A stretch of 64,000 nucleotides of DNA from Isurus oxyrinchus. Its lineage: Eukaryota. Location of the stretch: assembly GCA_026770705.1 (NCBI GenBank), contig JANJGN010000016.1, positions 121,334,001-121,398,000 of the forward strand. The letters run 5' to 3'. This document shows positions 1,996 to 59,200 of this stretch, one piece after another. Position numbers and translations under genes: made by a program. The notes under the pieces are model-generated. The model did no database searches, had not been told where the DNA came from, and saw only the letters and a program-made list of their open reading frames with translations. The stretch's first letter is position 1. Every line of letters begins with the position of its first letter.

Positions 1996-3538
1996 GGCAC
2001 TGGATACTGCAAAGCCTATGTGCCCTGACAATATTCCAACAATAGTACTGAAGACTTGTGCTCCAGAACTTGCCGTGCCCCTAGCCAAGCTGTTCCAGTA
2101 CAGCTACAACACTGGCATCTACCCGGCTATATGGAAAATTGCCTAGGTATGTCCTGTACACAAAAAGCAGGACAAATCCAACCTGGCCAATTACCACCCT
2201 GTCAGTCTACTCTCGATCATCAGTAAAGTGATGGAAGGGGTCATCAACAGTGCTATCACTGTTGCTTAGCGATAACTGACGCTCAGTTTGGGTTCTGCCA
2301 GGGCTACTCAGTTCCTGACCTCATTACAGCCTTGGTTCAAACATGGACAAATAGCTGAACTCCTGAGGTGAGTTGAGGGTGACTGTACTTGACATCAAGG
2401 CAGCATTTGACCATGTGTGGCATCAAGGAGCCCTAGCAAAACTGGAGTCAATGGGAATTGGAGAAAACTCTCCGCTGATTGGAATCATACCTAGCACAAA
2501 GGAAGATGATTGTGGTTGTTGGAGGTCAGTCAGCTCAGCTCCAGGACATCACTGCAGGAGTCCCTCAGTGTTGTGTCCTCGGCCCAACCATCTTCAGCTG
2601 CTTCATCAATGACCTTCATCCCATCAGAAGGTCAGAAGTGGGGATGCTCGCTAATGATTGCACAATGTTCACACCAGTTGGGACTCCTCAGATACTGAAG
2701 CAGTCCATGTCCAAGTGCATCAAGACCTGGACGATATCTAGGCTTGGGCTGACAAGTGGCAAGTAACATTCACGTCACACATGTGCCAGGCAATGACACT
2801 CTCCAACAAGAGAGAATCTAACCATCACCCCTTGACATTCAATAGCATTATCATCACCGAATCCCCCACTATCAGCCTCCTGGAGCTTACCATTGACCAG
2901 AAACGGAACTTGACAAGCCATATAAATACCATGGCTACAAGAGCAGGTTCAGAGGCTAAGAATCTTGTAGTGAGTAACTCACTCTTGACTCTCCAAAGCC
3001 TGTCCACCATTTACAAGGCACAAGTCAGGAGTGTGATGGAATACTCCCCACATGCATGGATGAGTGCAGCTCCCACAACATTCAAGAAGCTCGACACCAT
3101 CCAGGACAAAACAGCCCACTTGATTGGCACCCCATCTACAAAATTCACTCCCTCCACCACTGATGCACAGTAGTAGTAGTGTGTACAATCTACAAGATGC
3201 ATGCAGGAATTCACCAAGGCTCCTTAGACAGCACCTTCCAAACCCATGACCACTACCATCTAGAAGGACAAGGGCAGCAGATAGATGGGAACACCACCAC
3301 CTGTAAGTTTCCCTCCAAGCCATTCACCATCCTGAATTGGAACCATATCACTGTTCCTTCACTGTCACTGGGTCAAAATCCTGGAACACTCTCCCTAACA
3401 TCACTGTGGGTGTACCTACACCACATGGACTGCAGCAGTTCAAGAAGGCAGCTCAGCACCACCTTCTCAAGGGCAATTCGTGAAGGGCAATAAATGCTGG
3501 CCTCACCAGGGATGCTCACATTACGTGAATAAAAAAAA
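1996..3538 (+). mobile_element. 5'-truncated non-LTR retrotransposon (CR1/L2 group), RT region and 3' tail, inactivated
   Basis: Fragmented RT motifs: LDIKAAFDHVWH, GVPQCCVLGP, LANDC (YADD-like), IYKAQVRSVMEY. 3' tail AAGGGCAATAAATGCTGGCC followed by an A-run at ~3531-3538. Confidence 0.9.
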
Positions 3539-4809: not shown

Positions 4810-7800
4810 TGCTCTATTACAGGAAAAGAAGCTGGTTAATTGGTGAGTATCTGGTAAATGATTACATTTTATTCTAAATCTAAGGCTCAAAATAGGATAT
4901 TTTCAGCGACAGGTGAGCGGAAGAGGATAAAAGGCGCAGATTGCTGGGTTGCTGCTGCAGCATGTGGGTCCTCCTGGATACCATGAGCAAACACATCTGT
5001 AGTAAATATTTGCAGCTTGAGGAACTTTAGATCCATGTTGAGGAGCTGGAGTCCAAGCTGCAGACATTGAGCCACATCAGGGAGGGGGAAAGTTACCTGG
5101 ACACTTTGCTCCACGAGGCGTTCACACCCCTCAGATTAGATAATTCAACTTTTGCCTGTGATGAGAGACAGGAAGGTGTGGCTGCAGGTGAAGCAGGTAT
5201 GGGGACCCAGGGGGTAACTTTCGAGGAGCCTCAGCCCCTGCAATTGTCCAATAATTACGAGGTTCTTGCAAGCTGGGTGGACGAGAGTAGGGACGGCAGG
5301 GAGGATGAATGAACTGACCATGGTACTGAGGCACAGGGAGCCATTCAAGTGGGAGGAGGATATGGGAACGTAATAGTGGCAGGGAACAGTATAATTAGGG
5401 GATAGATACTGACCTCTGAAGCCATGAGGGTAAGTCCTGAATGCTGTGTTGCCTGCCTGGTACCAGGGTTAAGGACATCTCCTCAGGGCTGGAGAGGAAC
5501 TTGGAGTGAGAGGAGAGGGATCCAGTTGTCGTTGTCCAAGTTGGTACCAGTGACATTGATAGGACTAGAAAGGAGGTTCTGCTGAAAGAATTTGAACAGT
5601 TCGGAACTAAATTAAAAATCAGAACCTCCAATCTTGGGATTACTACCTGAACCACGGGCAAACTGGCATAGGGTAATTAAAGTCAAGACGTTAAATGCTT
5701 GGCTCAAAGATTGGTGTGGGAGGAATGGGTTTCAGTTCATGGGCACTGGTACTAGTACTGGGGTAGAAAGGAGCTGTTCTGGTAGGAAGGGCTTCACTTG
5801 AACTGTGCTGGCGAATCAATGACCTAGGTCTGTACAAAGGGCTTTAAACTAAATAGAGGGGGAGAGGGTTCTGGAGAGGAGATACATAGGCTTACAAAGC
5901 AAAAGCGTATGGCAGCCTTGCAGAGCAGCTATTTAGTTAATGATGCCCAGTGTATGACAGGAAGGGACAGAATGTACAAACATAAAAAAAAGCAGCAAAT
6001 AGGGTCAAAGGGGGAAAAATGGTAAAAAAGCAAAATTAATGGCTCTTTACTTAAATGCACATAGTATTCAAAACAAAATAAATAAATTAACGGCACAAAT
6101 AGATGTTAATGGGTATGATCTTATAGCCATAATCTTACAGAGACATGATTACAAAGAGAACAAAACTGGAAACTAAATTTCAGGGGTATGTGAATTTTCA
6201 GTAGGACAGGCAAGAAGGAAAGGGTGGTGGGATAGCTTTGTTAGTACGAGATGGAGTAAGTACGATAGCAAGAAATGATCTTGGATCGGAAGATATAAAA
6301 TCCATATGGGTGGAGGTAAGAAATAACAAGGGGAAGAAGACACTGGTGGGAGTAGTCTTTAGGCCCCCTAACAGTAGCTATACTGTAGGTCAGAGAATAA
6401 ATCAGGAGATAATGAGGGCATGTAAAAAAGGCAGTACATTAATCATGGGTGACTTTAATCTTCATGTAGATTGGGAATATCAAATTGGCAGATGTAGCTA
6501 CCAGCAAGAATTCATAGAGTGTATTTGGGACAATTTCCTAGAACAATGTGTTTTGGATCCAAACAGGGATCAGGCTATTTTGGATCTGGTAATGCGTAAG
6601 GATGCAGGTTTAATAAATGATCTCAGAGTAAAAGATCCCCTAGGAAACAGTGACCATAACATGGTAGAATTTAGCATTCAGTTTGAAAATTAGAAACTTG
6701 GGTCAGAAACAATGTGCTAAACTTAAATAAGGGTAATTACAAATGAATGAGGGCAGAGTTGGCTGGAGTGGACTGGGAAAGGAGTTTAGCAGAAAAGATG
6801 GTTGATGAACAATGACAGACATTTAAGAAAATAGTTCATGACTCAAAACAAAGACATAACCCAATGAGGAAGAAGGATTTTAGGAAAGGGATAAACCAGC
6901 CATGGTTAACTAAGGAAGTTAAAGATAGTATCAAATTGAAAGAAAATAAAAAACATAAAATATGGCAAAGATTAGTGATAAGCCAGAGGACTTGGGAAGT
7001 TTTAAAAACCAACAAAAGATAACCAAAAAATAATAAAGAGGGAGAAAATAAACTTTGAGGGTAAACTAGCAAGTATTATAAAATGGACAATAAGAGCTTC
7101 TTTAAATATATAAAAAGGAAGAGAGAGGCCAAAGTGAACATAGGCCCCTTAGAGAATGAGGTTGGGGAAATAATAATGGGGAACCAGGAAATGGCAGAGG
7201 AGTTGAATAAATACTTTGCTTTAGCCTTCACGGTAGAAGACACTTCATTCCATAAAAGCTAAAATGGAAGGCATTCCATAAATACTCAATAATCAAGGGG
7301 CAACTGAGGGGGTGGGGGTGGGTGGGAGGAAATACATACAGTAACTATCATTAGAGAAAAAGCACTAGGGAAACTAATGGGGCTAAAAGCTGACTGGTCC
7401 CCTCGACCTGATCCAAGGATATTAAAGGAAGTAACTGTAGAGTTAGTGGATGCACTGGTAATAATCTTCCAAGAATCTTTAGATTCTGGAAAAGTCCCAG
7501 AGGATTGAAAAACTGCCAATGTAACAGCCTTATTCAAAAAGAACAGGTAACTATAGGCCAGTTAGTTTAACACCTGTCATTGGGGAAATCTTAGGGTCTA
7601 TTATAAAGGATATAATAGCAGAGCATTTAGAAATGCATAATATAATCCAGCAGAGTCAGCATGGCTTCATGAAGGGAAAATCATGCCTGACAAATTTATT
7701 AGACTTCTTTCAGGAGGTAACAAGTAGGATAGATAAAGGGGAATCAGTAGATATAATATATTTGGATTTCCAAAAGGTGTTCGATAAGGTACCACACATA

Positions 7801-8950
7801 AGGCTATTTAATAAGATACGAGCCCTTGGTGTTGGGGTAGTACATTGGCATGGATAGAGGATTGGCTAATGAATAGAAGACAGAGAGTTGGGATAAGGGG
7901 GGCATTTTCAGGATGGCAACTTATAACTGAAGTGCCACAGGGATCAGTGCTGGAGCCACAATTATTTACAATATATATTAATGACTTGGATGAGGGAAGT
8001 GAATGTACTATCTCCAATTTTGTGGGTGACACAAAAATAGGTGGGAAGGCAATTAGTGAGGATGACACAAAGGGGTCTACAGAGGGATATAGAGAGGGTA
8101 AGTGAGTGGGCAAAAACTTAGTAGGTGGAATATAATGTGGGAGAATGTGAGGTTATGCACTTTGATAGGAAATATAGAGGAGCTGAATATTATTTAATTG
8201 AGACAGACTGCAGAAAGCTGCAGCACAGAGGGATTTGGGGGACCTTGTGAATGAATCACAAAAGCTAGCATACAAGTTCAGCAGGTCATAAGGAAGGCAA
8301 ATGGAATGTTAGCCTTTATTTCAAAGGGAATGGATTATAAAAATAGGGAAGCTTTGCTAAAACTATACAAGGCACTAGTTAGACCACACCTAGAACACAG
8401 TGAATAGTTTTGGTCACCTGAACTAAGGAAAGCTATACGTGCATTGCAGGCAGTCCAGGAAGGTTTACTTGGTTGATCCCGGGTATGGAAGGATTTTCTT
8501 ATAAGGGGAGGTTGAGTGGGCTGGGCCTGTGCTCATTGGAGTTTAGATGCATGAGAGGTGGCCTTATTGAAACATATAAGATTCTTAGGGGGCTTGATAG
8601 GGTAGATGCTGAGAGGTTGTTTCCCCTTGAGAGAGACTCTAGGACCAGGGGGCATAATCTCATAGTAAGGGGGCACCCATTTAAGACTGAGATGAGGAGG
8701 AATTTCTTCTCTCAGAGGGATGTGAATCTGTGGAATTCTTTACCTCAGGGGGCTGTAGAGGCTGGGTCGTTAAGTATATTCAAGGCTGAGATGGACAGAT
8801 TTTTAATCAGTAAGGGAATCAAGGGTTATGGGGCAAAGGCAGGAAAATGGAATTGAGGATTTTCAGATCCGCCATGACCTCATTGAATGGCAGAGCAGGC
8901 TCGATGGGCTGAATGGCCTACTTCTGCTCCTATGTCTTATGGTCTCATGG
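4810..8950 (+). mobile_element. Near full-length CR1 LINE (ORF1 esterase-like; ORF2 APE endonuclease plus RT), multiply disrupted
   Basis: ORF1 remnants (CCLPGTRVKD, VVVVQVGTSD) resemble the SGNH esterase of CR1 ORF1. APE motifs FRPPN, MGDFN, LGNSDH. RT motifs QHGFMKGKSCLTNL, YLDFQKVFDKVPH, VPQGSVL. 3' end CCTATGTCTTATGGTCTC. Confidence 0.93.
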
Positions 8951-10093
8951 AGGTAAATATGTGCTCTCCTGAAGTTCACCAGTTGAAAGTGGCCAGCTAC
9001 TGTGCTAAGCCTGTTAGCCAGTGGGTCCTGGACAGAGTGGGAGAAGAATTAATTTGGACAGGGGTGAGTATAGACTGGTAGTTCTTTGGAGCAGTAAGAG
9101 CACTGCTCCTTTTGGCCCCACAGAAGTAAAAGATAAGGAAGCTTGGATCCCTTTTGTGGAGGATCCACCAGAGGTTCTTGAAAAGACTCTTAATTAGGCC
9201 ATTCATTGCCTGTTATAAATGGGCAAAATGTATGCATTTTGTAGTTCAAAAATTGCCATCAGTGTCTTACAGTAAGGTAGAATCCTCAATTGCTCATTTT
9301 AACAGCCCACGGCCCAAAACAGATGGGCATGTTGCACAACTATTTAGAGGCCCTGAGTGTGCAATGAACATCCAAGGACCACACAGAACCTTGACTTTCC
9401 GCTGCTGGCACCTGTCTTTAGGTGGGAAATGAACAGTTGGCATCTGAGACTATATTATTGGAGAACATATACAGATATGGATGGAGATGCAAATTATTCT
9501 TCATTCATATAATGATTTGAATATAGGCTTAAGAGGGATGCTTTCACTGTCCGCTTAATACACCAAAGTTAGCAGGGGGAAGAGGGATGGGAAATTGCAA
9601 ACACGCAGTAATGCAGAATACTGAAGAGAGTGATAGATGGATTATTGGAGTGGGCTTAGTGATACATGCAGTTCAATCCAGTGGAATGTGAAGTTGTGTG
9701 TTTTGGGATGTAGTGTATGTTAAATGTCAAGATCCTTAATAAAGAGGAGACAAGGGTAGATCCTGTAGTACAGCTTCATTGGCCCGGAACTTGTGCTTCC
9801 TGTACCAATGGTGCAAGTGCAAATGCAAGCAGAGGGAGCGGAAATTCTGAATTTTCATATCTGCACATAGCATCTGTGCTAGTTTTCCACCTTGTGTAGT
9901 GAGCTGCTTTGATCCTTGCTGCAAGCTCGTGGATAAAAAGAAGAGTGCAATTAAGGCTGTTCAGACATAGTCCCAGGAAGCGATTTATCACATCTCTTAA
10001 AGGTGTATAACCTACCAATTAGCAAATATAAACTCATTTACATTGTTAATTTGTGTCTTTTTTGGTCTGTTGGATTGATTTTGAAGCATTTTC

Positions 10094-10386
10094 TGTTCTA
10101 TGATATTGTATGTGCCTGCATGCCAGTGTAATGTATAGGTGCTTGGCAGAGGAAAGGTTAACATCGGACTGGAGAATAGCACTGTCCACCGTATGATGTG
10201 TAGAATCACATGGTAATAGACTCAGAGAGAGAGAGCATTCTATGAACAGTCTACCTGCAAGGAGGCAGCACCATGCATGACATTAACTGGGGTCTATACA
10301 TAGGTAAAGATTAACAATAAATGGTTCATGTTTAAACATGCAAATCTTAAGACATCATTGTGAAACATCAAACAACCCATGCAACA
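10094..10386 (+). repeat. LTR-like direct repeat, copy 1 (293 bp)
   Basis: Starts TGTT and ends AACA, has an internal AATAAA, is followed by PBS-like TGGTTATCAACGGTG, and is colinear with 12896-13188. Confidence 0.8.
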
Positions 10387-10617
10387 TGGTTATCAACGGT
10401 GATATGAAAAGTGACATTTTAAATGGTGAACTCAGTACAGAATCCCCAGATATGAAAATCTCTGAAGCCTGACTTGAGAGACATGTGCCTAAGAAGAAAA
10501 ATTAAATAAACAAATGAAGGCGCTTTGCTACAGGCTTAGAAGTTGAGGAATCCACTAGAGTGAGTGGAATTCCATTGCAAGGCCCCTGAGTGTCACAGAG
10601 TAAAAAGAAAAAAAAAC

Positions 10618-10770
10618 CTGGTCAGATCACAAAGACAGGTGAGCATATGCACAAAAAATTGCAAGATCCTGAGTGATGCAGTGTAAAGAATACTGGTCAG
10701 TTCACAAAACAGTGAGTAAAAACACAAAAAATTGCAAGACCCTGAGTGATGCACAGTCAAAGAGCCTGGG
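10618..10770 (+). repeat. Two tandem copies of a ~75-bp unit in the leader of the LTR-bounded element
   Basis: CACAAAAAATTGCAAGA(T/C)CCTGAGTGATGCA occurs at ~10650 and ~10723, each preceded by TGGTCAG(A/T)TCACAAA. Confidence 0.75.
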
Positions 10771-10979
10771 CCGTTCATAAGCCAGTTAGCAAAAAGTACA
10801 AAAAAGAAGCTGTACTTACAATACTTACAGAATTAACAGTCTTGAATGTTTAAAAGTAAAAAAAAAGCACAGAAAAAAAGTTTAAATGTTAAAAAAAATG
10901 AAGCAGCCAATTTCCATAGCGCATACCAAAAGTGCAGGAAGCTCACAACAAAGAAAATCAACATGCTTCAGACAACCTA

Positions 10980-12560
10980 AATGAAAAAAATGGCTACTGC
11001 ACAGATAGCCTTAAAAGGGCAACAACATTTAAAGCTGTAACTACAAGAAAAAAATGGCCATGGACAAAAAATTATAAAAGACGCGAGAGATAAAACAAAA
11101 GACACCTTTGAGGTGTTGACAGAAAGCCTCAGAGAGAGGGAAACAAGACTCCAGAGCAACGGAGGTAGATGACATTGCGGTGTTAGCAGATGGCTAAAAA
11201 TGAAGGAGAACTTTCTGAGGTAACTCAAAAGAAGCAAAACATACAAAAAGTAAATGAAACTATTATACAGGAAAATGTTCGCATCATAGCTGAACTGGAA
11301 GATTTGAAGCACAAGATTCAAGCTGAGTATATACCTTTGAAAATGCACGATAAACTGAATTCATCAATGAACCAAGCTGTTCAAGACCTGAACAAACAAA
11401 TTCCAGAGATAACAGAGAGGTGTCAGGAGGAAATAATGACACCAATAATGTGGAAATAATTCCACACTGAGCAAATCAAAGCAGGAGTTGAGAAAATGCC
11501 ACCAGTTGTATAGCCAGGTAAATCAGCAGGCAAAAAAGGCATGCAAAGAAGTTGTGATCCTGAAAGACTCCTTGAAGAATCAATATGTAGCCATGGAACA
11601 ACATGAGGAGCTAAAAGGTATTTTGAATATTACTTCAGAAAAAGCTGCATTGGAATTATCAGTGGCAGGGAAACCATGTCCTGAAGCCCAGAGTGAGTGA
11701 GTTGGCAAGAGGTCAACAAGAAAATAAACAGTTGGAAGAACAGTTGATTATTCTTCAAGATCAAATGCAAAGAGAATGGGTAACCATTTAGCAACATGAA
11801 GAAATGAAGGCTTTCTTAAACAGCAGAATGGAAACATAGCAGAAGAAACCCGAGGAGGCTATGCTGAAATACAGGAAAACTCAAGACGAAGCAATTGAGT
11901 TTCATAAAGAAAAGGAGAACCTGTTGAAAAATCTTCACAGGCCACAAAGGCACCTCAATCAAACTTTGTTCTTCTGGAAAATTATGAAGAGAAGCAAAAT
12001 TAACTTAATGTCATTCCGAATAAACGGAAGAACCAGTTGGCAGAGAAAACTCAGCAATGTTTCATAATCCAGGAGGAAGCCAAAAGCTACAAGAAACAGA
12101 CAGAAGAGCTGAAGAAGCAGTTGAATGGCAAGGAGGAAGCATTGAAAGGAAAAGCAGTAGAACTTTTCAACCTGTGAGTGGATAATGAAGCCATGAGTAG
12201 CACAATTACAGAACTGAAACAAGTTAAGACTTCACTGGAGATGGACCTGGCCAACAGTGAAACCAAAACAAAGGACAAGGACAAAGGTCTGCTGTAGACA
12301 GAGAAAGAAAAGACAGAATTGAGATTGGGAAATGTAAATCTGATACTGAAGTGCCAGTAAGTAAAAGAAGGAAAAGCACTGGATGTCTCAGACGTGCTGA
12401 GAAACATTGAGCTGAATGAAGAGATTCATAAGCTTGCAAAATGGTTTGAAAATAAAATAGCAAACAACTGTTTGGCTGAAATTGTGAAACAAGTTGAAAT
12501 GAAGGTTCCATCTGCAGAATGTATACATCCAGCAGGAACATGTCAGAAAATTTAAGTCTG
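10980..12560 (+). pseudogene. Decayed intronless coiled-coil coding sequence, RAI14/UACA/ANKRD24/ANKRD35-like
   Basis: Serial E/K/Q-rich ORF fragments (EYIPLKMHDKLNSSMNQAVQDLNKQI; EVVILKDSLKNQYVAMEQHEELK; KYRKTQDEAIEFHKEKE) recall the repeats of this family. Many stops and frameshifts. Family assignment is from memory only. Confidence 0.6.
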
Positions 12561-12895
12561 CTCTGTGAATTCCCACATTCCCTGTGGAAGGTTCAGGACA
12601 AACCCACAGTGTCCAAGAAAAGCAGGCGGGTTGTTAATAAAGAGAAACACAACACGAAGGAGCGCAAAAAGTGCATTAAATTGAGATAACCAAGCGTGAG
12701 GAACACAAAGTACTACTACCATTCCTCCAAACATAACAAACTGAGATGTGGAAGAACTGCCAAGCCTCAAGACATCTGAGTTCATAAAGTCTGAGACATG
12801 AGGTGGGGGAGAAGGGATAGCAAGTAAAGATTATATTATAAACAATTATACTCCATTTGAAGGGAGGAAAGATTTCTTTTGAGAAGAAAAAGGGA

Positions 12896-13188
12896 TGTTG
12901 TATGATGTTGTACCTGTCTGCGTGCCATTGTAATTTAAAGGTGCTTGGCTGAGCAAGGGTTAACTTGGGACTGGAGAATTGCACCATCCATGATATGATG
13001 TATCGAGTCACATGATAATGGATCTGAGAGAACACTCTAGAAGCAGCCTACCTGCATGTAGGCAGCACCATGTATAACATTAACTGGGATCTGTACACAG
13101 TTAAAGATTAAGAATAAATGGTTCATGTTTAAACATACAACTCTCACGATCTCATCACTAAGACATCAAATGAACCCATAACACAACA
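12896..13188 (+). repeat. LTR-like direct repeat, copy 2 (293 bp)
   Basis: Starts TGTT and ends AACA. Directly preceded by polypurine tract GAGAAGAAAAAGGGA (12881-12895). Colinear with copy 1. Confidence 0.8.
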
Positions 13189-14419
13189 TGGTGATCAATG
13201 GTGGTATGCACCATGGTGAGCAGCGGTGGTACACTATATTTTATTTTGATCTTTATCAGCTCCAGTTACTGTTCTATTTTTATATTTAACCCCTGTAACT
13301 ACTTACTCTTCACGAGTGTTTCACAGACATATGCAATAGCTCTTGTTAATAGGCTAGGAATTCCATTACAATTCTCTTGTCCTTGGGTGCTGGAGGATGA
13401 AGAAAACATCCAAAGCACTCACCAAAGGGATTTCTGATGTCCGCCTGTCTATGAGGCATAGGCTCACCATTACCCAGGGAGAGTGCTCCACAGATCCCAT
13501 TAGGTCTTCTTGAATATGTGGCAGGAGACCGGGTGAGAGAAGTCATTCTCTGGGATAAAAATGAGGCCTAGAAGTTCAATTTGGTCGTGCCAGCAATACA
13601 ATCATCTCAAGAAGTTGGAAGGTGAGAGCATGCGGAGTGACTTAGCTTGTGGACAGGCTGCATGCTATTTGGTAGGGTTGTTCTAAAATGGTTTGGGGTG
13701 TAGGGTGTTGAAAGCTATAAGTGTTCTGCTGTACGTTACATTTTGAAGGGACATTACTCTGATTCCAGAGAGTTGAACAATGAGCTATAAAGCTTGAGTA
13801 AGGTCTTTGAATGGATGAAGAGTAAATGTTCAACAGGGAACATTTTGTGGTGAGCAATCTTTTGGGCCATCTACAAGATCTTGACTTTCCAGATTCCTTT
13901 GCCTGTGATCATCTACATCATCTACTCCTAGGTCAGAACAACATTCAGCCTGTTCACCACCTGCCACTAGGAATAGTGTGCAGGCGCCCTCTGGGAATGC
14001 TGTTCTGAAATGTCAAATTGGACAACCTGCCTCATAAATGTATGTCTATTTATACATCACTAAAAAAGGGAAATGGATGCTGTGCCTCTCATTCATTTGC
14101 CCACCGAAGAGGTGTTATGTCTTCATATCTTGTTTCCTTTCAGTTTGTTAATGCCTGATACTACTTCTCACCACCCACCCCCACCGCCGCCCCCCCAGCC
14201 TCAACTAACAAATATGTAATATTGATTTTGAAGCTTGATAAGCCTGAAATAAATGCCTTTAAATGGATTTGAGAGCCAGAAATGCTAATTGCTCTATTGG
14301 GCAGACTTCCTACAAAGGCCAAAGTTGCATTGGCAGCTGTGTATAGTTATTTTAATGAACTGAGCAGTCAGTCCAATCTGCATTAGGGAATGCAGCCAAA
14401 GCATCATAAAAGATTGTTT

Positions 14420-22299: not shown

Positions 22300-22720
22300 T
22301 TTTAATTGCTCCACCAATGGTGGCTATACATTCAGCTGCCTAGGCCCTAAGCTCTGGAATTCCCTCCCTATGTCTCTTGGTGCCTCTACCTCTCTCCTGC
22401 CATTAAGTCACTTGTTGAAGCCTATCTTTTTGATCGGGCTTTTAATCATCCAGTCTCCTAACTCCTTGCATCTGGAGTTCTGATGAAAGGTCACAGACCT
22501 GAAACGTTAACTCTTTTTAACTCCAAAGATGCTGCCAGACTTGCTAAGTATGTCCAGCATTTTCTGTTTTTAGTCCGGGTTTCCAGCATCTGCAGTAATT
22601 CACTTTTATAATATCTCTCTCTATGGCTCAGTGTCATATCTTGTTCCATAACTCTCCTATGAAATGCCTTGGGACATTTTACTGTCATGCAGTATGTATA
22701 TAGGAAAATTGTTGTTGAAA
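22300..22720 (+). mobile_element. L2-type LINE 3' remnant interrupted by a Penelope-derived short element (~22475-22610)
   Basis: TTCAGCTGCCTAGGCCCTAAGCTCTGGAATTCCCTCCC is a typical L2 ORF2 end. The insert matches the family of the 59011-59200 hairpin. Confidence 0.6.
22475..22513 (+). ncRNA. Minimal type-I hammerhead ribozyme motif with intact core
   Basis: GAGTT-CTGATGA-A-AGGTC(ACA)GACCT-GAAAC-GTT-AACTC. Stem I GAGTT/AACTC, 5-bp stem II, CUGAUGA and GAAA boxes, palindromic AACGTT stem III. Confidence 0.72.
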
Positions 22721-23780: not shown

Positions 23781-24110
23781 TCAGTGCTGGAGGGTGGGAT
23801 GTCTGGTCTTGGAGAAGCAGGTTGTGACCCAGAACAAGGTCATGGCCAGCTCTTTAAAGGGCCCCCTGGCATGGGACAGTGTTAGGTGACCCATTGTATG
23901 ATCCTTCAAGAGCAGAAACTGTGTAGAGTATACTTTTGCCGACTCACCAGAACCAAGTCTCCCTCCAATCTCGCCACTGCCTGTGCTCCTGGTTGTCTTG
24001 GGTTTGAGCAGGGCCAGCACTTGCTCCTCAAAAGGAGTCAGGAGTTCCATGTTGGGTATAGCCCCGTCTGTATGAGCTCACTCTCAGGCATTGTGGGCTC
24101 GCTTGTCCTG
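23781..24110 (-). mobile_element. Harbinger Myb/SANT-gene exon-2 remnant, inverted copy
   Basis: MELLTPFEEQVLALLKPKTTRSTGSGE; reverse-complement match to 25400-25513. Confidence 0.7.
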
Positions 24111-24147
24111 AAAATATTTGACACAGAATTTTGTTTTTTGACTTTTG

Positions 24148-25086
24148 ACTGACCTTGACATCAAGGCAACATTTGACTGAGTGTGGCATCAAGGAGCCTT
24201 ATCAAAACTGGAATCAATGGGAATTAGGGGGAAACCTCTCTGCTGGTTGGAGTCATACCTAGCACAAAGAAAGATGGCTGAAGTTGTTGGAGGTCAATCA
24301 TCCCAGTTCCCGGACATCACTGCAGGAGCTCCTCAGGGTAGTGTCCAATGCCCACCCTTCTTCAGCTGCTTCATCAATGATCTTCCTTCCATCATAAAGA
24401 CAGAATTGGGGATGTTCGCTGATGATTGCACAATGTTCAGCACCATTTGTGACCCCTCAGATACTGAAGCAGTCCATGTCCAAATGCAGCAAGACCTGTA
24501 CAATATCCTGGATGGGCTGACAAATGGCAAGTAACATTCACGCCACACAAGTGTCAGGCAATAACCATCTCCAATAAGAGAGAATCTAACCATCTGACAT
24601 TCGATGGCATTACCATCGCTGAATCTCCCAATATCAACATCCTGGAAGTTACCATTGACTAGAAACTGAAATGGACAAGCCATATAAATACTATGGTTAC
24701 AAGAGCAGGTCAGGGGCTAGGAATCCTGCAGCAAGTAACTCACCTCCTGACTCCCCAAAGCCTGTCCACCATCTACAAGGCACAAGTCAGGAGTGTAGTG
24801 GAATACTCTCCACTTGCCTGGATGAGTGCAGCTCCCACAACACTCAAGAAGCTCGACACCATCCAAGACAAAGCAGCCCCGCTTGAATTGGCACCACGTC
24901 CACAAACATTCACTCCCTCCACCACCGATGAACAGTACCAGCTGTGTTTACCATCTACAAGATGCACTGCAGGAATTCACTGAGGCTCCTTAGACAGCAC
25001 CTTCCAAACCCACAACCATTATCATCTAGAAGGACAAAGGCAGCAGATAGATGGGAACACCACCACCTGGAAGGTCCCTCCAAGTC
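24148..25086 (+). mobile_element. LINE RT fragment, same family as 1996-3538
   Basis: Close similarity to 2380-3320 (WHQGALSKLESMG, PQGSV, FADDC, IYKAQVRSVVEY). Confidence 0.9.
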
Positions 25087-25379
25087 AGAAGATATAATTC
25101 CAAGCGCTGGGAAGAGGAGGAAGTCCAGACAGACCCATGCTGCATGGGAGGGGTGGCTGAGGAGATTGGTTTTGTAGACATTGTGAGGAGAGCAAAAGGT
25201 TCCATGACCTCATGAGGTCAGGGTGAGTATGGCATCATATGAACCATATTTGTAGAGTGTGAAACGGGTCTCACAAGTGAATGCAGTAGGTATTTGAGAT
25301 TAGCTGCTCACCCAAAGTTGCATGTTTCCACAAGGGCATGGCTGGTCTAAACCATGCCTTTATGTATTCCAAGCAATAA

Positions 25380-26690
25380 GCCCCCAATGCCCAAAAGCAA
25401 GCCCGTTCAGGCAGGGCTATACCCAACATGGAATTCCTGACTCCTTTTGAGGAGTAAGTGCTGGCCCTGCTCGAGCCCAAGACAACCATGGACACAGGCA
25501 GTGGCGAGACTGGTGAGGTGGCAAAAGAATCAGACTGGGTGATAAGAGGAGATTGTTAGTTTGTTTTAAAGGAGGTTAAGAAATATGCAGTGTGCTTCGT
25601 GTATGGATTTTACACTTTGGAACTTTAACAAGTTACATAGTCAGAAGATTTCTGTCACCAGTCAAGCTTTCGCATTGTCTGTCGAGCTCATTCATGCATG
25701 TCAGGCCATAAAGAGGCTTGTGTGGGCCATGTGATACGTGGTGTGTCAAGCAATACGATATCCAATTACCCCCTCGCTGATCTCTCCCTGTTACAGGAGA
25801 AGCCTCTTCAGCACAGCAGAAGTCGTGCAGCAACCTCCCTCCTCCTCCTCTTCCTCGGAGAGTGCAGCATCACATCCTCTCTCCGCACCCAGCAGCATTC
25901 CAGATACTGACACTTGGGCAGGGATTTGTGCGTTGGGCAGGGGTCAAGCATGCACTTCACAATTGCACGTGCAGCTGCCGGAGAGTGTGGTGGAGTGGGC
26001 CTCTGGCAGTTGGAGGAGCGTCCGGGGTGATCCAGAGACTGATTCCGAGCACGATGATGAGCCTCTGGAGTTGTCCATAAGGTGGCAGATGCTGAATGTC
26101 CAGCGAGAGGTCAGTGAAGATTTGGCGGGTATACCAAAGGTGTTGGGTGTTCTGGTCCAGACAGTGGAGGTGTCCATCCAGGTCACAAGAGATCACCCAC
26201 TCTATGGAGTGACAAGCTTCCTCCATTGACAGACTGGCGACTGTCCTGGAGGGGAAAACTGAGTGTACTGCAGATGCAATCATCAGAATGCGTTCTGACT
26301 CGCACACCATCGCCCTGTCTCTGAGTTCCAGGGCACAGACTCAGACAGGTAGTGGAACTAGGAGTTTGGTCACACACCCAACTGCTGGAACCCCTCCAGT
26401 TGGCAGGGAGGACCAACTGGTCCTAATGGCAGGGGATGAGCAGCAGCTCATGGTATTTCTGATGCGCGCATTATCTCCTCTGTTCATCAGCCATTGATGC
26501 AGGCCTCGGCCATTGCCCTGGTGACTGAAGACTCATTTGCATTTGTGCAAGAGTCTTGGGCCACTCAAGGCCACAGGAGCATAAAGGATGCCCACTGAAG
26601 TCATCCAGGGCAAGGGAGGTGGCAGATCAGTCGCTTCTCTCCAGTGCAGCCACAAACAAAGGGGGAGCACGGTTCTGGAACACTCATAAT
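25380..26690 (+). mobile_element. Second, older Harbinger: decayed Myb/SANT accessory gene (exons 2-3)
   Basis: LTPFEE motif at ~25437, acceptor CCCTGTTACAG at ~25797, and an S/P-rich ORF (25738-26229) paralleling 33874-34771. Confidence 0.6.
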
Positions 26691-27030: not shown

Positions 27031-28200
27031 TTAAGATGTCACTTGTGTCACGATCATCCCTTGATCATGGTCAGAGGCATTCGCAGCAGCATTACTGCGT
27101 TCCCTCACCTCATCCCTGCCATTGTCCTCTGAGGATTGGTCCCCTTCTGGCCTGTCTTCATCCTCCAGGGCATCTCCTCTTTGTATGGCGATGTTGTGGA
27201 GGACACAGAAGACCATAACCGTCAGGACACGTGCGGGGGAATATTACAATGCACCTCTGGAACAGTCCAGGCATTGGAAGCGCATCTTGAGGAGCCTGGT
27301 GGTTTGCTCCATTGTGCCCCTGGTGCTGGCATGACTCTCATTGTACTTCCTCTCTTCCTCAAATCTTGGCATCCTCACAGGTGTTATGAGCCATCTCTTG
27401 ATAGGAAAGCCTTCATCGCCTAGAAGTCATATCCCTCTAATGCATCTGGGCTGGTGAAAAGGTCTGAAACTTGCAAATTCCTAAGGATATATGCGTCATG
27501 ACTGCTGCCTGGGTATCTGGCAGACACCTGTATGACCAGCCATTTGTGATCACACACCAGCTGCACATTGACTGAGTGGAATCCCTTTCTGTTTATGAAT
27601 GCAGGAGTTTTGATGGCTACAAGTGTGTACTCAATGGCTGCCTGCACCCTGGGGAAACCAGCAATGGCAGCAAATTCTTGTGCTCTCTCATTCTGGCTTT
27701 GGGCATCCTGTGTGAAGGCAATGTAATCGCTGGCTCTCCAGAACGTTGCACCCGTGAATACCTTAATGCAATGGTGCGCAGCAAGCTGTGTTATCCCAGT
27801 CAGGTCTCCACAGGCTGCCTGAAAGAGCTTGTAGCGGAAAATTTCAGTACTACTGTCACCTTCAAGACAACGGGCATCTGGTGGCCTCCAAGGCAATTTG
27901 ACAAGATCTCCCCTGCAAGCATCTCATAAAATGACGTAGCAGTTGCCCTTGAAAGCCTCAGTCACTTTCTGCACAGAGTCTCACTCGGTTGCAGGTAGCT
28001 GCCTGTATACACATGATGCAGCATAATGCCGTTTGTGCCTCCAATGAGGGTTTCTATGCTCCTCCTAACCATAATGGTCTGGTGCTGCTCTGTCGCCATC
28101 CTGTGGACCCAAGCATTCTGATCCCCTATTCCTTTCACCCTTCCCCTCCTCCTATTGACCACCAACAGACACCACAATCCATATCTGCCTCCAAGAGTAT
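27031..28200 (-). mobile_element. Second Harbinger: decayed HARBI1-like DDE transposase
   Basis: [53 protein letters not shown], acidic C-tail; frameshifted. Confidence 0.88.
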
Positions 28201-28433: not shown

Positions 28434-28686
28434 TGTAGGATGGCCAAGTTGTATTATTAGTGATAGAGTTGATCTGCAGGCACTTCTTGGGTGGAAACAT
28501 TAAATTTATTTACAATATACTCAGCAGCAACTTTACGTGTGCTTTTAACTCCGACTGTATCTCTACACTTACTGCTGAGGTAGCCCGCGCTACTCTCCTA
28601 TTGGTTACTACAGATCATGTGGTCTTGCTCAACACGTATTATTCTTGAGGGTACATTTCACACTATATAAAACCATAATTACTACA
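28434..28686 (-). repeat. 3' LTR of the Gypsy element (distal end uncertain)
   Basis: Minus strand reads PPT AAAGGAGAAGGAG directly followed by TGTAGT at 28686; AATAAA on the minus strand at ~28505-28510. Confidence 0.6.
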
Positions 28687-31005
28687 CTCCTTCTCCTTTA
28701 ACTCTGCTACACATATTGTATTTACGAGGACATATTTTTCAAGACAGCATAATATTTACACTGGGTAAGGAATTTACAAGTTCAGACTTTCAGGTGGTTT
28801 CCTGGTCCATGTGGAATGTCGCAGCTCCACAACTTCAGATTCTTTGTCAGGATCCTCCTTTTCCAGAGTTGCCTGAACATCAGCTGCTTCGGTGAGCACT
28901 TGCAGTTCTGTATCCTCAACTCTTACAGAAACATCGGACAATCGGACATGTCTGTCCTGGGTTGAGTATCCTCAACAGGAAACCCAGACCTGGTCATGGT
29001 CACTGGTAGAACCAAATCTTGGTGATTTGTCTCTCCCTTCCTTAAATGGCCCACATGTTTATGGATGATCCAGCCTTCCACCTCCATGTGGTAAGATACA
29101 GGTCCAGTCACCATACTTATTTCACCCACTTTGGTCCTTCCCTGAAATTTTTTATGTATACTGGCTCTCCCTTGATAAATTTCCTCTCACAGCTATGCCA
29201 GTCGTATCAAGTTTTCTGGTTTCCCTGACTCCTTTCCACCTTCCCCTCTAAATTCCGCATTATTAAGCTCTCTCTTGTCCTGAGCCGATGTTTCAACAAT
29301 AACTCCACAGGTGTGACACCTGTTGTTGTGTGAAGGGTAGTTCTGTAATGAAAAAGAAAACGTGTTAGCTTGGTCGCCAAGGAATTGCCAGTCAACTTTA
29401 TCATGCCTGCTTTGAATACTTGAACCGCCCTTTTGGCCGGACTGTTTGATGAAAGGTGGCACAGTGCAGTTTTCACATGAGTGATACTGTTGAGGCTGAT
29501 AAACTGTTGAAACTCAGCGCTCGTAAATGCCGTGCCATTATCGGAAACGACTACTTCTGGTAGTCCATGAATGGCAAAACTCTGAGGTAGTTTCCCAATT
29601 GTAGCAGCCGACATTGGTTACTTGACCTCATATATGTCCAACCATTTTGAGTGGGCATTGAGAATGAGCAGAAACATTGTTCCCAGGAAAGGTCCAACGT
29701 AGTCAATGTGTAACCACACCCAGGGTCTACCCAGCCACACCCATGGGTGTAATGGAGCTGTCACTGGCAACTTCTGCAGCTGCTGACATTACACACAGTG
29801 CTTTACTAAACTCTCTCTTTCACCATCCATCCCAGGCCACCATAGATAGCTGCGTGCTATGGTCTTCAATCAGGAAATTCCTCGATGGGCACTGTGTAGT
29901 TCAATTAAAAATGGCTCCCTTCCCTTTGGAGGAACTATCACTCTTGCTCCCCACAATAGGATACCATCCTGGCTGGCTATTTCGTGACTTCTGTTGAAGT
30001 ACAGTTTCATTTATTCAAATAAGGACTCCTTTAGCACTTGTTCTCATACCTGAAGACTGGGTCCTGACATATCCATTCTCTGATCAGTCGAGCACATACT
30101 GGTGAGAAATCTAAGAAATTTAACAGTAAAACAAGTCCCTGTGGAGCTGGGACATGCTCATCATTTTCTTGTAAAGGCAAACGGCTAAGGTTGTCGGCGT
30201 TTGCGATTTGATTGCAAGGCTTATGTACGAAAGTATTCATATGCTGCCAGAATTAAGGCCCGTTGTTGTATCCTTGCTGAGGCTATGGGTAATATAGCCT
30301 TAACCTCACTAAACAATCCTATCAATGGTTTGTGGTCTGTGAAATGATTGTAAAATGGTGGCCGTGTATGTACTGGTGAAATTTCTTGACACCAAAGATG
30401 ATGGACAGGCCTTTTTTTCTATCTGTGAGTATCCCTTTTCCCCTGTGGTGAGCATTCGTGATACACAACCTATTGGCCGTTCTGTGCCATTGTCCATCCG
30501 ATGAGAGAGCACTGCTCCCACTCCGTAGGGAGATGCATCACATGTCAGCACCAATTCTTTCATCTGGTCATAATGCGCTAATAGATTGGACGACTGTAGC
30601 AATTACTTCATCCTTATGAAAGCTTCTTTCTGAGACAACTACCAACATCAATGTTTTTCGTTTTGAGTAGAGAATGCAGGAGTGCCAGCACTGTAGACAA
30701 TTTGGGTAATAGTCCATAATAGTTCATCATTCCAAGGAATGATTCGAGTTCTGAAGTGTCCTTTGGTGCAGGTGCCTCTCATAGCTCTCACCTTCTCCTC
30801 AGCTGGGTGGAGGCCCTGTGAATCTACCCAGTGACCCAAATCGATTACCTCCCTCTCTTGGAACATGCAGTTTTCTTTTTTTAAGAGCACTTCAGATTTT
30901 TCTAAGATTGCCAAATGCTCTGTCACCAGTACAACCTGGGCCAGCCCCTGCAGTGAGCTTTCCATTGTTCTCTGAAAGACGGCACAAGCAGATGTTATGA
31001 TCAAA
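28687..31005 (-). mobile_element. Ty3/Gypsy pol remnant (partial RT, RNase H, integrase)
   Basis: SACAVFQRTME (RT); [16 protein letters not shown]...YSQIEK (RNase H); HGLPEVVVSDNGTAF (integrase); GPVSY tail; order RT-RH-IN. Confidence 0.92.
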
Positions 31006-31899
31006 GCAGTTGGTAAAGCTGAGTTATTTAAAAAACCCCAATTGACTCATTTGGCATTTAGATTAACATTTAAATAACCCAGTGAGTTCCTGACTTTATG
31101 ATCAGCCTGCATACAGAGTGATTGTAAACCACCATGATTGTGTTGTGTGCAGTGTCCGACACCATCACATCTCATCAAGCACTCCGCGAGGTGGGACACG
31201 CTCCCAATCACAGAGCAAATTACTCAGCCCAATAGCTCAGAATTTGCTGATAAGGCAATGGAGAGTTTATTGTGCGTATTGTTACGAGTGTGCTTAAAAA
31301 CCTCTCAGCAATTTGTGGTGAGGCATTAGCCTCGCAAAACAGGACCTGTTCATCAACCTTGTCGTGAGTTTAAAGAAATTGCTGCATTAAACTCACTGCA
31401 GAAAGTTAAGGCTGATATTTCAGTGCGCAAGGACCCTTTTAACAGCGAACTTTACATCCCTTCAATGCCACTCAACCTCTCCAGCCTTGAAAGAAAACAT
31501 TTGAAAGTGCAGATGATAAATTGCTCCCAAAGGTTTTTAAAATCTTAAACATTTTATTACTTTTCCTTTCTGTCACTTTTTTCTCACCCTTAATCCACTC
31601 TCACTTTCCCCCTTTTTATTTCTCTTTCTGTATTGAATTTGACTCTAACTCACCTTATTCATTGATTAAGGAGATAGACCGTTGGGGCAGAATTTGCCCT
31701 TGACGGGCTGGCAGGCCTGACTGACTTGGCGCTGCATTTTGCGCGGGTGGGCCAATTAAGACCTGCCCAGCGGGTAAGTGGCTCCTGTGTACAACAGGAA
31801 AATCATTGTAGCGGCGGGCGTGTTGAGACTGCTGGTTCCAATGGGGAACCGGCAGTCTGTACAAAGAGTGGCCAGGCAGCCTGCTTTAGGCTGTTCACC

Positions 31900-35019: not shown

Positions 35020-36330
35020 CTAAGCACCATTAATGGAAGTGCCAGGCAATGCTGCTCCTGCTGATCCATGTGTGTGGAGCTGGCTGAAGGTTCGTTGGAT
35101 TAAAGTGTCCCGGGTGTCCCTGCCTCCTTGGTGTAGTAGCGGGTCAGTGTACTGCCCCTCATCATCGCCCTGTGCTTCCTCATCCTCTGAGCCACTGCTG
35201 GATTCATCATGTGCAGCCTCATCCAGTGCGTCAAGATCTTCATCATCAACTGCATCCCCCCCCTTTCCAGCGCAAGATTGTGCAGGGTGCAGCATGCTAC
35301 CACTATCACAGAGAGGCGATTTGGGGGGTACTGGAATGCACCCCCAAGCATTCCAGGCATCAGAAGTGCATCTTGAGAAGACCGATGGCTCTCTCCACCA
35401 CAGCCCTTGTGGTGCCGTGGCTCCTATTGTACCGCTGCTCAGCTTCTGTTCTTGGATGGTGGAGAGGCGTCATGAGCCACCTTCTGAGGGGATAGACCTT
35501 GTCACCCAGCAGCCATCCATCCAGCCGGGCTGGAGCACTGAAGAGCCCCGGCACCTGGGAGTGTCTGAGGATGTAGACGTCGTGGGAGCTGCCTGGGTAC
35601 CTTGCACAGACTTGTAGAATCAGCATCCTGTGGTCACACACTATCTGCACGTTCACGGAGTGGAAGCCCTTCCTGTTGACGAAGGCACCGTCTCACCTGC
35701 TGGCGCCTTGATGGCCACATGTGTACAGTCTATAGCACCCTGGACACGGGGGAAGCCAGCAATGGCCGTGAAGCCTCTGGCTCGCTGTGACTGACTGGCC
35801 TGGTCCCAGCGGAAGTGGATGAAGGTCAATGCCCGTCTGAACAGAGTGTCTGTGACCTGCTTGACACAAGTGTGGACAGCTGATTGGGAGACACCGCAAA
35901 GATCACCCACCGACCCCTGGAAGGAGCCAGAGGCATAGAAGTTGAGGGCAACTGTGAGCTTCAGAGCTGCTGGCATGGGGTGTCCACCCACACAGTTAGG
36001 GGAGATCTCAGGGCCAATCATCTGACAGATGTAGTTGACTGTCTCCCTTAACAGTCAGAGCCTCCTTCACTGCATCTGAGTCATATTGAGGTAGCTGCTT
36101 CACCGCCTGTAAACCCTGGCAGCAGGATAGTGGCGTCTTCTGTGGCCCCTTCCACCTTGGACAACCTCTTGGCCTGCGGCCCTTATGCCTGCACCTGGCC
36201 TCCCAAAGGTGGCTCCCCTGGAGGCTGATTGTCCACTCCTGGCCTCCTCCTTATTCTATCCCTCCCTTCCTCCTCAGGGGAGCTGCCTCCAGTGGAGAGG
36301 TCAGAACCCACACCCCCAGGCTAAATGGAG
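35020..36330 (-). pseudogene. Harbinger (HARBI1-like) DDE transposase, frameshifted
   Basis: [55 protein letters not shown] split over three ORFs (35653-36021, 35360-35656, 35100-35360). Start position approximate. Confidence 0.93.
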
Positions 36331-47270: not shown

Positions 47271-48029
47271 GGCAGGCTGTGGTCCTCTCTCACCAGCATA
47301 CGCTTGAAGAAAACCTTTGCTTACTGGAAATTCACAGGTTTCAGTTGTTTCTCACACCACAAAAGACATATTTTTGGATGTGTTATCACATGACCTCCTG
47401 CTCCCAACTGCCCCTCCCCCACACTTTCACCATTGGTTCCCCCATCGTGCCTGTTTTGGCCAATAAGAAAGTGAGCAGATATTTCATTAAACGACTGAAT
47501 GATTCTTGCAGTCAGTCAGACTGTCTTTTTTGTCACGTGCAATATTTGCATAACTAGTTAACAAAACTGTTTAAATCAGAAAAAATGTCCTGCAGATTAA
47601 CTGCTAATTCCTTGGGACTCCAGGGCAACTCGGGGTTTTGGCAACCCGATCCTCCACCCCAGGAAACCCCTCCCACAGCTCAGCACTCCATTTCCAAATT
47701 GAATCTTCGACTTCCCAAGAGTTCCAGATCATTGACACACCACTCCCACTATTCCCAGGCCCTACAAGCCACTCCTACTATTGCTCATTATTCCCCCCAA
47801 AAGCTTTACCTTAGCCAAGTCCTAACATCATCATGCCAGTACTCCTACCACTTCCTCATCCCAATGATCCTCTGCTCTTCCTACATCCTACCAAGTCCTC
47901 CAACTGTTTCCACACCTCTGGATTATCATTCCAATTTGAACAAGTCATCCTCATTTATTTCTTTGTACATTCCTTGTATATGTCCCATACCTCCCTGCAA
48001 CCTGCAACATATTCCCAACTTCACTGAAG

Positions 48030-59010: not shown

Positions 59011-59200
59011 ACAAAAACAAAAATAGCTGGAAAAACTCAGCAGGTCTGACAGCATCTACGGACAGGAACACAGTTAACATTTTGACTCAAAACGTTAACT
59101 GTGTTCCTCTCCGCAGAAGCTGTCAGACCTGCTGAGTTTTTCCAGCTATTTTTGTTTTTGTTTCAGATTTCCAGCATCCGCAGTATTTTGCTTTTATGCT
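59011..59200. repeat. Penelope-derived foldback: 151-bp inverted repeat (59011-59161) plus tail
   Basis: ACAAAAACAAAAATAGCTGGAAAAACTCAGCAGGTCTGACAGC and its reverse complement, centred on 59086. Related pieces at ~22170-22235, 22500-22610, 41770-41960 and 43450-43600. Confidence 0.85.

What the first reader, a model, noticed from the sequence alone, without database searches (positions are those of the whole stretch)
10094..13188. LTR-bounded element carrying a host-like coiled-coil gene instead of gag/pol
Seen: two colinear 293-bp TGTT...AACA direct repeats, a PBS-like sequence after the first, a polypurine tract abutting the second, a short tandem-repeat leader, and ~1.6 kb of intronless, decayed E/K/Q-rich coding sequence with no visible RT, integrase or gag motif. 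Known: LTR-PBS-...-PPT-LTR is the cis-signal set of LTR retroelements, and such elements can transduce cellular RNA. Inferred: a non-autonomous LTR family captured part of a RAI14/UACA/ANKRD24/35-type transcript and may have spread it through the genome. Caveats: the LTRs are visibly diverged and no TSD was found.
Basis: partly seen in the sequence, partly recalled or inferred. Interest (0 to 1): 0.75.

Follow-up and report, generated by a model that had tools for sequence, protein, structure and literature searches.

The report
Shark retroelement carrying captured UACA fragment
This is an old, broken copy of a shark jumping gene that holds a piece of the host's UACA gene and no copying enzymes of its own, and that multiplied with this cargo to likely hundreds of copies or more, with related cargo copies in two shark orders; the capture route is likely a known one, but the scale is unusual.

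Summary
Observation confirmed, interpretation supported with corrections. Two 293-bp LTRs (18% different) and a perfect polypurine tract enclose about 1 kb that is 64% identical (210/326 residues) to white-shark UACA. No gag or pol domain is found. In three DNA runs the flanks are single-copy, every bin of the element is 29 to 1,700 times deeper, and dozens of contigs switch to unrelated flanks exactly at the LTR ends. Relatives of the rearranged cargo lie on at least seven different chromosomes or scaffolds of basking shark, white shark and cloudy catshark. Those tested form one clade inside galeomorph UACA, so there was one capture followed by spread. Corrections: the parent is UACA; 'intronless' proves nothing, because the piece seems to lie in one giant exon; a 95-codon tail and the leader have no known source; PBS-like units also follow the 3' LTR, and a probable 5-bp target duplication sits 50 bp past it. 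The mechanism (LTR-mediated retroposition with secondary amplification) is published; this family was not found in the papers searched. Superfamily, helper element and any function of the cargo remain open.

The parts
10089..10093 (+). left copy of candidate 5-bp target-site duplication (TTTTC)
   Evidence: partner at 13239-13243 is exact in the orthologous contigs of 3 of 3 DNA runs (table 3)
10094..10386 (+). 5' LTR, 293 bp, TGTT...AACA, AATAAA at 10316
   Evidence: 43/43/42 contigs in X1/X5/X9 switch to unrelated flanks at 10094 (table 7)
10387..10406 (+). PBS-like motif starting TGG, degenerate; likeness to a tRNA-Leu 3' end is recalled, not tested
   Evidence: 17/20 identical to the unit after LTR2
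10407..11204 (+). A-rich leader of unknown source; multi-copy but less so than the cargo (29-147x flank depth)
   Evidence: no Pfam hit; no convincing UACA match
10618..10805 (+). tandem repeat in the leader, period 73, 2.5 copies
   Evidence: also seen by blastn
11205..11435 (+). UACA block 1 (white-shark residues 694-770, 52/77 identical)
11458..11697 (+). UACA block 2 (residues 808-887, 48/80); follows a deletion and a frame change
11699..11956 (+). UACA block 3 (residues 887-972, 50/86); another frame, 2 stops
11956..12117 (+). UACA block 4 (residues 973-1026, 35/54); another frame, 1 stop
12118..12219 (+). UACA block 5 (residues 1177-1210, 26/34), joined in frame to block 4 across a 150-residue deletion shared with other copies; 1 stop
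   Evidence: same junction in P0007, P0010, P0012; absent in P0009
12220..12552 (+). family-specific coiled-coil-like tail in the frame of block 5, source unknown, 2 stops; 47-66% identical to tails of four other copies
12553..12880 (+). 3' internal region, multi-copy (about 220-290x flank depth), no shown pol remnant
12881..12895 (+). polypurine tract, 15/15 purines, abutting LTR2
12896..13188 (+). 3' LTR, 293 bp, AATAAA at 13113
   Evidence: 62/67/67 contigs switch to unrelated flanks after 13188, and 37 (X5) before 12896 (table 7)
13189..13238 (+). two 25-bp units, each a PBS-like 20-mer plus an LTR-end mimic; probable true right end of this insertion
   Evidence: 17/25 alike; other contigs in X5 and X9 show a 50-bp go-back joint here (tables 5, 5c)
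13239..13243 (+). right copy of candidate target-site duplication (one mismatch in the window, exact in X1, X5, X9)

Best explanation
This is a decayed copy of a dispersed, high-copy shark LTR element whose interior holds a piece of the host UACA coiled coil and no gag or pol, likely captured once by template switching during reverse transcription and likely copied afterwards with the enzymes of an unidentified helper element. Shown: LTRs, PPT, host cargo, no detectable enzyme domains, many dispersed copies with exact LTR ends, and one clade of cargo copies inside galeomorph UACA. Inferred: UACA RNA was co-packaged and reverse transcriptase switched onto it and back, probably in the ancestor of mackerel and ground sharks. 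The chimera kept LTR promoter, primer site and PPT and was mobilised in trans. Further switches gave subfamilies, one with a 150-residue in-frame deletion. In this copy, priming at a downstream repeat of the primer site would have lengthened the right end by two 25-bp units, which explains the target duplication 50 bp past the LTR. The copy then decayed (three frame changes, six stops); it is most likely a passenger without function today.
For: Cargo identity to UACA 210/326 (Carcharodon), 56-63% other sharks, 46-51% rays, 30-31% bony vertebrates. Flank depth 31/24/28 against 29-1,707 times that in 19 of 19 element bins; 13,696/11,116/12,697 contigs laid, about half under 90% alike. Unrelated flanks (agreement 0.35-0.38) begin exactly at 10094, 12896 and 13188 (table 7). 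Paralogous contigs about 82% alike bridge leader to cargo (X5 record 19, 11130-11436) and 3' interior through PPT into LTR2 (X20 record 16, 12699-13019). Nine relatives of the rearranged cargo were found: Cetorhinus 2, Scyliorhinus torazame 4, Carcharodon 1, unnamed ENA 2. The lamniform ones lie on contigs of 212, 250 and 153 Mb, while UACA lies on 39 and 46 Mb contigs. Tree: the 3 copies included form a clade (94/97) within galeomorphs without Heterodontus (95/94); holding host galeomorph UACA together without them is rejected, p-AU 0.006. Mechanism precedent: PMC5131818 (abstract, passages and Discussion read).
Against: No other full LTR-cargo-LTR locus was read end to end; linkage rests on short bridging contigs. 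Cargo depth (up to 1,707x) exceeds LTR depth (about 360-625x per repeat) and leader depth (29-147x), so many cargo copies may sit in other contexts or in more distant LTRs. The tool warns that summed depth is no copy number. The cargo spans no known exon junction, so RNA capture is not proven. Junction microsimilarity could not be tested without parent DNA. The target duplication was noticed after the fact, is imperfect in the window, and has about 0.5% chance if tied to the 25-bp register but 18% if any of 112 positions is allowed. The Lamniformes+Carcharhiniformes node has only 85/90 support. The PBS is degenerate. No helper element was found.
Confidence: 0.82

Rival explanations
1. The UACA piece was taken up at DNA level (an LTR element landed in or beside the giant exon and recombination or gap repair moved exon DNA between the LTRs), then spread by retrotransposition. 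Only the capture step differs from the best explanation.
For: No exon junction is spanned. Human c.3346 and c.3873 lie 528 bp apart in the genome, so residues 1116-1292 are one exon (PMC3798264, table passage). None of 23 same-species isoform pairs has an indel between residues 400 and 1370. A full c.1222-3960 exon is recalled, not shown.
Against: Both cargo ends fall inside coding sequence, the cargo is sense to the LTR promoter, and no intron-like UACA flank is evident; partial sense pieces are what template switching gives (PMC5131818 Discussion).
Confidence: 0.2
2. This particular copy is not one clean insertion but the relic of a tandem or recombined pair: LTR2 was the 5' LTR of a second copy, so a primer site follows it, and the rest was deleted. 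LTR divergence would then overstate its age.
For: PBS-like units follow LTR2; LTR1 is followed by only about one unit; no target duplication at 13188; 18% LTR difference.
Against: Nothing of the leader follows the units (depth returns to single copy), and a 5-bp match to the left flank sits exactly at the end of unit 2 in 3 of 3 DNA runs.
Confidence: 0.25
3. The UACA-derived repeat spread mainly through another vehicle (other LTRs or a non-LTR route) and is tied to this LTR family only in a minority of copies.
For: Cargo bins are up to 3 times deeper than LTR bins and over 10 times deeper than the leader; many internal joints and loose ends (tables 5, 7).
Against: The 3' interior stays at 220-290x right up to PPT and LTR; bridging paralogues exist on both sides; an 80% cut-off loses diverged LTRs and leaders first.
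Confidence: 0.12
4. Two independent solo LTRs happen to flank a single UACA pseudogene.
For: The LTRs differ by 18%; no exact target duplication in the window's own letters.
Against: No bin between the LTRs is single-copy (lowest 29x), the PPT abuts LTR2, and paralogues bridge interior to LTR.
Confidence: 0.02

Closest known systems
LTR-mediated retrocopies, Tan et al. 2016 (PMC5131818; abstract, passages and Discussion read)
   Same: A partial host coding piece replaces element ORFs between LTRs, in sense orientation, with secondary retroposition and possibly more than one source segment.
   Different: Cases there are young and low-copy (maize Bs1 one to five copies; 5 of 7 zebrafish retrocopies examined). 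Here depth points to hundreds or more, shared across two shark orders; intron loss and junction microsimilarity are not shown.
Crocodilian ERV gene captures: nectin3 in CrocERV31, KIT-ligand in CrocERV29 (PMC4299795; passages read)
   Same: An ancient vertebrate LTR element carries a host gene, copies share an internal deletion, and the capture predates a species split.
   Different: Those are ERVs that keep retroviral genes, carry near-complete mRNAs under purifying selection and number about six (nectin3). This element has no detectable viral gene, a fragment from one exon, far more copies and no tested selection.
Non-autonomous LTR elements such as mouse ETn, plant TRIM/Cassandra and LARDs (recalled, no call)
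   Same: Cis signals only, high copy number, moved in trans; Cassandra carries host 5S sequence.
   Different: The 2.5-kb interior here holds protein-coding host sequence of a named gene.
UACA (Nucling) of galeomorph sharks
   Same: Donor of 11205-12219; 56-64% residue identity.
   Different: No ankyrin repeats, no C-terminal exons, two internal deletions, a foreign tail, stops and frame changes.

Membership tests
LTR retroelement (cis signals) | Direct terminal repeats with TG...CA ends | tested here: met
   293 bp each, score 285 vs shuffle maximum 28
LTR retroelement (cis signals) | Polypurine tract abutting the 3' LTR | tested here: met
   12881-12895, 15/15 purines
LTR retroelement (cis signals) | Primer-binding site complementary to a tRNA 3' end after the 5' LTR | tested here: inconclusive
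   TGG-starting motif at 10387, repeated at 13189 and 13214; no tRNA set to compare (searches found none); tRNA-Leu likeness is recalled
LTR retroelement (cis signals) | 4-6-bp target-site duplication | tested here: inconclusive
   None at 13188; exact 5-mer at 13239-13243 in X1, X5, X9, one mismatch in the window; chance 0.5-18%
LTR retroelement (cis signals) | Dispersed copies with exact termini and unrelated flanks | tested here: met
   42-67 contigs per run leave the element exactly at 10094 or 13188, flank agreement 0.35-0.38
Autonomous Gypsy, BEL/Pao or ERV | gag, protease, RT, RNase H, integrase (env) | tested here: not met
   0 Pfam families in 6 of 6 frames; control Gypsy in the window detected
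Autonomous Gypsy, BEL/Pao or ERV | LTR or remnant similarity to a classified helper element | tested here: inconclusive
   No match to the window's own Gypsy LTR or pol end; no repeat library available
LTR-mediated retrocopy (Tan et al. 2016) | Partial host coding sequence replacing element ORFs between LTRs | tested here: met
LTR-mediated retrocopy (Tan et al. 2016) | Intron loss (cargo crosses exon junctions) | tested here: inconclusive
   Cargo appears confined to one large exon; shark exon map not available
LTR-mediated retrocopy (Tan et al. 2016) | Microsimilarity at the switch points | not testable with these tools
   Needs parent DNA and helper element; only a short residue-level likeness at the internal deletion was seen
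LTR-mediated retrocopy (Tan et al. 2016) | Secondary retroposition with shared junctions | tested here: met
   Same deletion in 3 of 4 relatives that reach it; shared tail in 9 of 9
LTR-mediated retrocopy (Tan et al. 2016) | Transcription from the LTR promoter | tested here: inconclusive
   One run guessed to be RNA holds contigs of this locus; contigs show neither strand nor start
LINE-made processed pseudogene | 3' end of the mRNA with poly(A) tail | tested here: not met
   UACA match stops at residue 1210 of 1409 and runs into a foreign tail, PPT and LTR

The most novel reading that the evidence does not exclude
The cargo was not a passenger. The active elements kept one chimeric coiled-coil frame (UACA rod plus foreign tail) under selection, using it as a decoy of the pro-apoptotic, NF-kB-restraining UACA or as a packaging scaffold. 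This would be one case of a recurrent habit of cartilaginous-fish LTR elements to capture and mass-amplify host coiled coils, so acting as transducing elements at genome scale. Hints: the shared 150-residue deletion keeps the frame, and UACA runs in frame into the tail in 7 of 9 relatives, though these were picked as open frames.
Probability: 0.2. Interest if true: 0.82.

Novelty: new variant of a known kind. Interest (0 to 1): 0.58.

Why it matters
Published animal cases of LTR gene capture that I read are young or number a few copies. Here one capture seems to have founded a whole repeat family that outlived the split of two shark orders. That gives a large, datable sample for testing whether captured coding sequence helps an element (dN/dS across real copies) and how switch points and deletions accumulate. 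It also matters in practice: copies are already annotated as genes (two Cetorhinus LOCs, four Scyliorhinus hypotheticals), and one forms the first 48 residues of a white-shark 'mucin-13-like' model, so the family can inflate coiled-coil gene counts or supply new exons.

Tried and rejected
No whole genome was held, so copies could not be counted or read end to end. Metagenome scans gave nothing: LTR motif 0 matches; P0007 104 pattern stretches, 0 confirmed; alignment A1 was too variable to scan with. The idea that 12741-12779 is a Gypsy integrase tail was not supported: DNA score reached by 6% of 300 shuffles, protein scores 19-26. The idea that the tail is diverged UACA C-terminus was not supported: best profile score on 18 UACA proteins 5.4 bits, colinear window best in 1 of 20 comparisons. 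Atlas and PDB searches of the tail gave only generic helices. The leader (P0005) got no Pfam hit, and its source is open. No family protein with an enzyme domain turned up among proteins of 318-2000 residues (1 hit of 7,999 candidates; weak evidence). Rfam 0 hits, tRNA 0. No RNA holder was listed. X20, guessed to be RNA, holds two contigs about 98% alike to 10362-11270 and none on the flanks; this is not counted as expression. Scyliorhinus P0009 (41 columns) was left out of the tree; P0008 and P0011-P0014 hold too little UACA to place. Paper searches: shark+LTR retrotransposon+UACA 0; searches listed no report of this family by title or abstract start; TSD motif search 0; repeated-PBS search nothing relevant. 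PMC9004415 has 0 mentions of UACA; bioRxiv 2025.06.08.657570 passages showed nothing on it. No supplements were read, and Repbase and Dfam could not be searched, so the family may be deposited there.

Full report
Observation. The two repeats are as described: 10094-10386 and 12896-13188, 293 bp each, TGTT...AACA, 53 differences in 288 sites (K2P 0.213), score 285 against at most 28 in 200 shuffles, AATAAA at matching places, and a 15/15 purine tract before the second only. The tandem leader is present. Six frames of the interior, read with X at stops, gave no Pfam family, whereas a decayed Gypsy at 28772-31046 in the same scan gave RNase H and integrase domains. A PBS-like motif follows LTR1 once and LTR2 twice, the latter as two 25-bp units (13189-13238), each ending in a mimic of the LTR end.

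The cargo. An intact 90-residue frame found one protein among 46 candidates, a ray UACA. With UACA orthologues in hand, five blocks in 11205-12219 map in order to white-shark UACA residues 694-770, 808-887, 887-972, 973-1026 and 1177-1210. Over 326 columns identity is 64% to Carcharodon, 56-63% to seven other sharks, 46-51% to four rays and 30-31% to coelacanth and turtle. The host is therefore a galeomorph shark, probably lamniform (inference). The copy is dead: three frame changes, four stops in the UACA blocks, two in the tail. After residue 1210 the frame continues for about 95 codons that are shared with other copies but not shown to be UACA. RAI14 and ANKRD24/35 were not compared directly; the high, colinear identity and the nested tree position identify UACA.

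'Intronless' carries no weight. Human c.3346 and c.3873 are 528 bp apart in the genome (PMC3798264, table passage), and c.3701 is in exon 16 (PMC12881209, passage). None of 23 isoform pairs shows an indel between residues 400 and 1370. That the exon covers the whole coiled coil is my recall. The 150-residue deletion therefore removes exon sequence; it is not a lost intron.

It is a family. A search of 1.84 billion representatives with the last 204 residues returned 8 short proteins: two from Cetorhinus maximus, four from Scyliorhinus torazame on four scaffolds, two unnamed. A ninth is the N-terminus of a Carcharodon 'mucin-13-like' model. All nine carry the tail. Three of the four that reach the deletion share it; P0009 does not, so subfamilies exist. 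The lamniform copies lie on contigs of 212, 250 and 153 Mb, UACA itself on 39 and 46 Mb. These records give no DNA, so their LTR context is unknown. In a tree of 17 rows and 338 columns, the window and the two Cetorhinus copies form a clade (94/97) inside galeomorphs without Heterodontus (95/94), beside Carcharodon, Mustelus and Scyliorhinus (85/90). Keeping host galeomorph UACA together without them is rejected (p-AU 0.006).

Reads. Four of 24 listed runs were laid at 80% likeness. In the three DNA-like runs the flanks have depth 31, 24 and 28. All 19 element bins are 29-1,707 times deeper: LTRs about 360-625, leader 29-147, cargo and tail 231-1,707, 3' interior 220-291. The tool states that this is no copy number, so I take only the order of magnitude. 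Dozens of contigs per run leave the element exactly at 10094 and 13188 (and 12896 in X5) into unrelated sequence. This fixes the LTR ends and shows dispersed insertion; most rows of that table were not shown. Paralogues about 82% alike bridge leader to cargo and 3' interior to PPT to LTR2. No listed piece spans the whole element. The insertion is shared with organism B, whose flanks differ by 2.5%; the LTR difference is about 8 times that, so if the copy is one insertion it is about 8 times older than that split.

The right end. All three DNA runs differ from the window at 13243, which makes 13239-13243 identical to the five bases left of LTR1, exactly at the end of the second 25-bp unit. Other contigs show further units at this place. 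My reading is that priming at a downstream primer-site repeat lengthened the end, leaving a terminus integrase could use. The match was seen after the fact (chance 0.5-18%), and a recombined or tandem origin remains possible.

Mechanism. Shown: cis signals, host cargo, no enzymes detected, dispersed high copy number, shared junctions, single origin of the copies tested. Inferred: co-packaging of UACA RNA, double template switch, mobilisation in trans, later deletions by further switches. This follows the model of Tan et al. (PMC5131818; abstract, passages, Discussion read), including secondary retroposition. Results against a simple picture: cargo depth exceeds LTR and leader depth; tail and leader have no source; no helper or superfamily could be named; a suspected Gypsy pol remnant failed its control.

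Comparison and novelty. It works like an LTR-mediated retrocopy turned non-autonomous element. It meets the partial-cargo and secondary-spread criteria; intron loss, microsimilarity and transcription are open. It is not an autonomous Gypsy, BEL or ERV. Bs1 has one to five copies (PMC5131818) and the crocodilian nectin3 capture six insertions (PMC4299795, passages), against hundreds or more here. Ten paper searches, listed under Tried and rejected, found no report of this family; repeat libraries and supplements were not seen. Three earlier notes of this scan describe similar captures (EDC4, CIN85, RBPMS2) in other shark- or ray-like genomes. They are unchecked AI notes; they suggest the case is not unique and raise the question of a lineage-wide habit. 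UACA's role in apoptosis and NF-kB control is taken from passages of PMC12881209 and PMC3798264 and underlies only the speculative novel case.

Verdict. Real, well supported, a new variant of a known kind; interest 0.58.

Noticed in passing
window 53163-57133: Satellite array, 31-bp unit, 128 copies, 92% matches, no indels.
   Followed up: no
window about 28450-31046, minus strand: 3' part of a decayed Gypsy element: RNase H and integrase domains, PPT and one LTR; the 5' part is missing. LTR unrelated to the finding.
   Followed up: partly
window about 6200-8950 (+) and 45123-47351 (-): Two LINE copies about 69% alike in opposite orientation, with endonuclease and RT domains; CR1-type by recall.
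   Followed up: partly
window 27248-27923, 31678-32244, 35335-36054: Harbinger-like remains: DDE_Tnp_4 and Myb/SANT domains; 27248-27668 resembles 35335-35766.
   Followed up: partly
window 23965-24099 and 25379-25513: 135-bp inverted arms (86%) enclosing 24146-25087, which is 86% identical to 2380-3322 and partly to 48030-48629: possibly a small inverted-repeat element interrupted by a 940-bp repeat.
   Followed up: no
window 59011-59161: Near-perfect hairpin, 75-bp arms, 95% complementary, related to 22502-22609.
   Followed up: no
P0134 (XP_041056171.1) residues 1-48: A white-shark 'mucin-13-like' model begins with the element's UACA-to-tail junction: exonisation or a gene-prediction artefact.
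   Followed up: partly
table 7, LTR ends: Flanks next to the LTR ends look slightly non-random in their first few bases, a possible target preference; agreement is low (0.35-0.38) and it was not tested.
   Followed up: no
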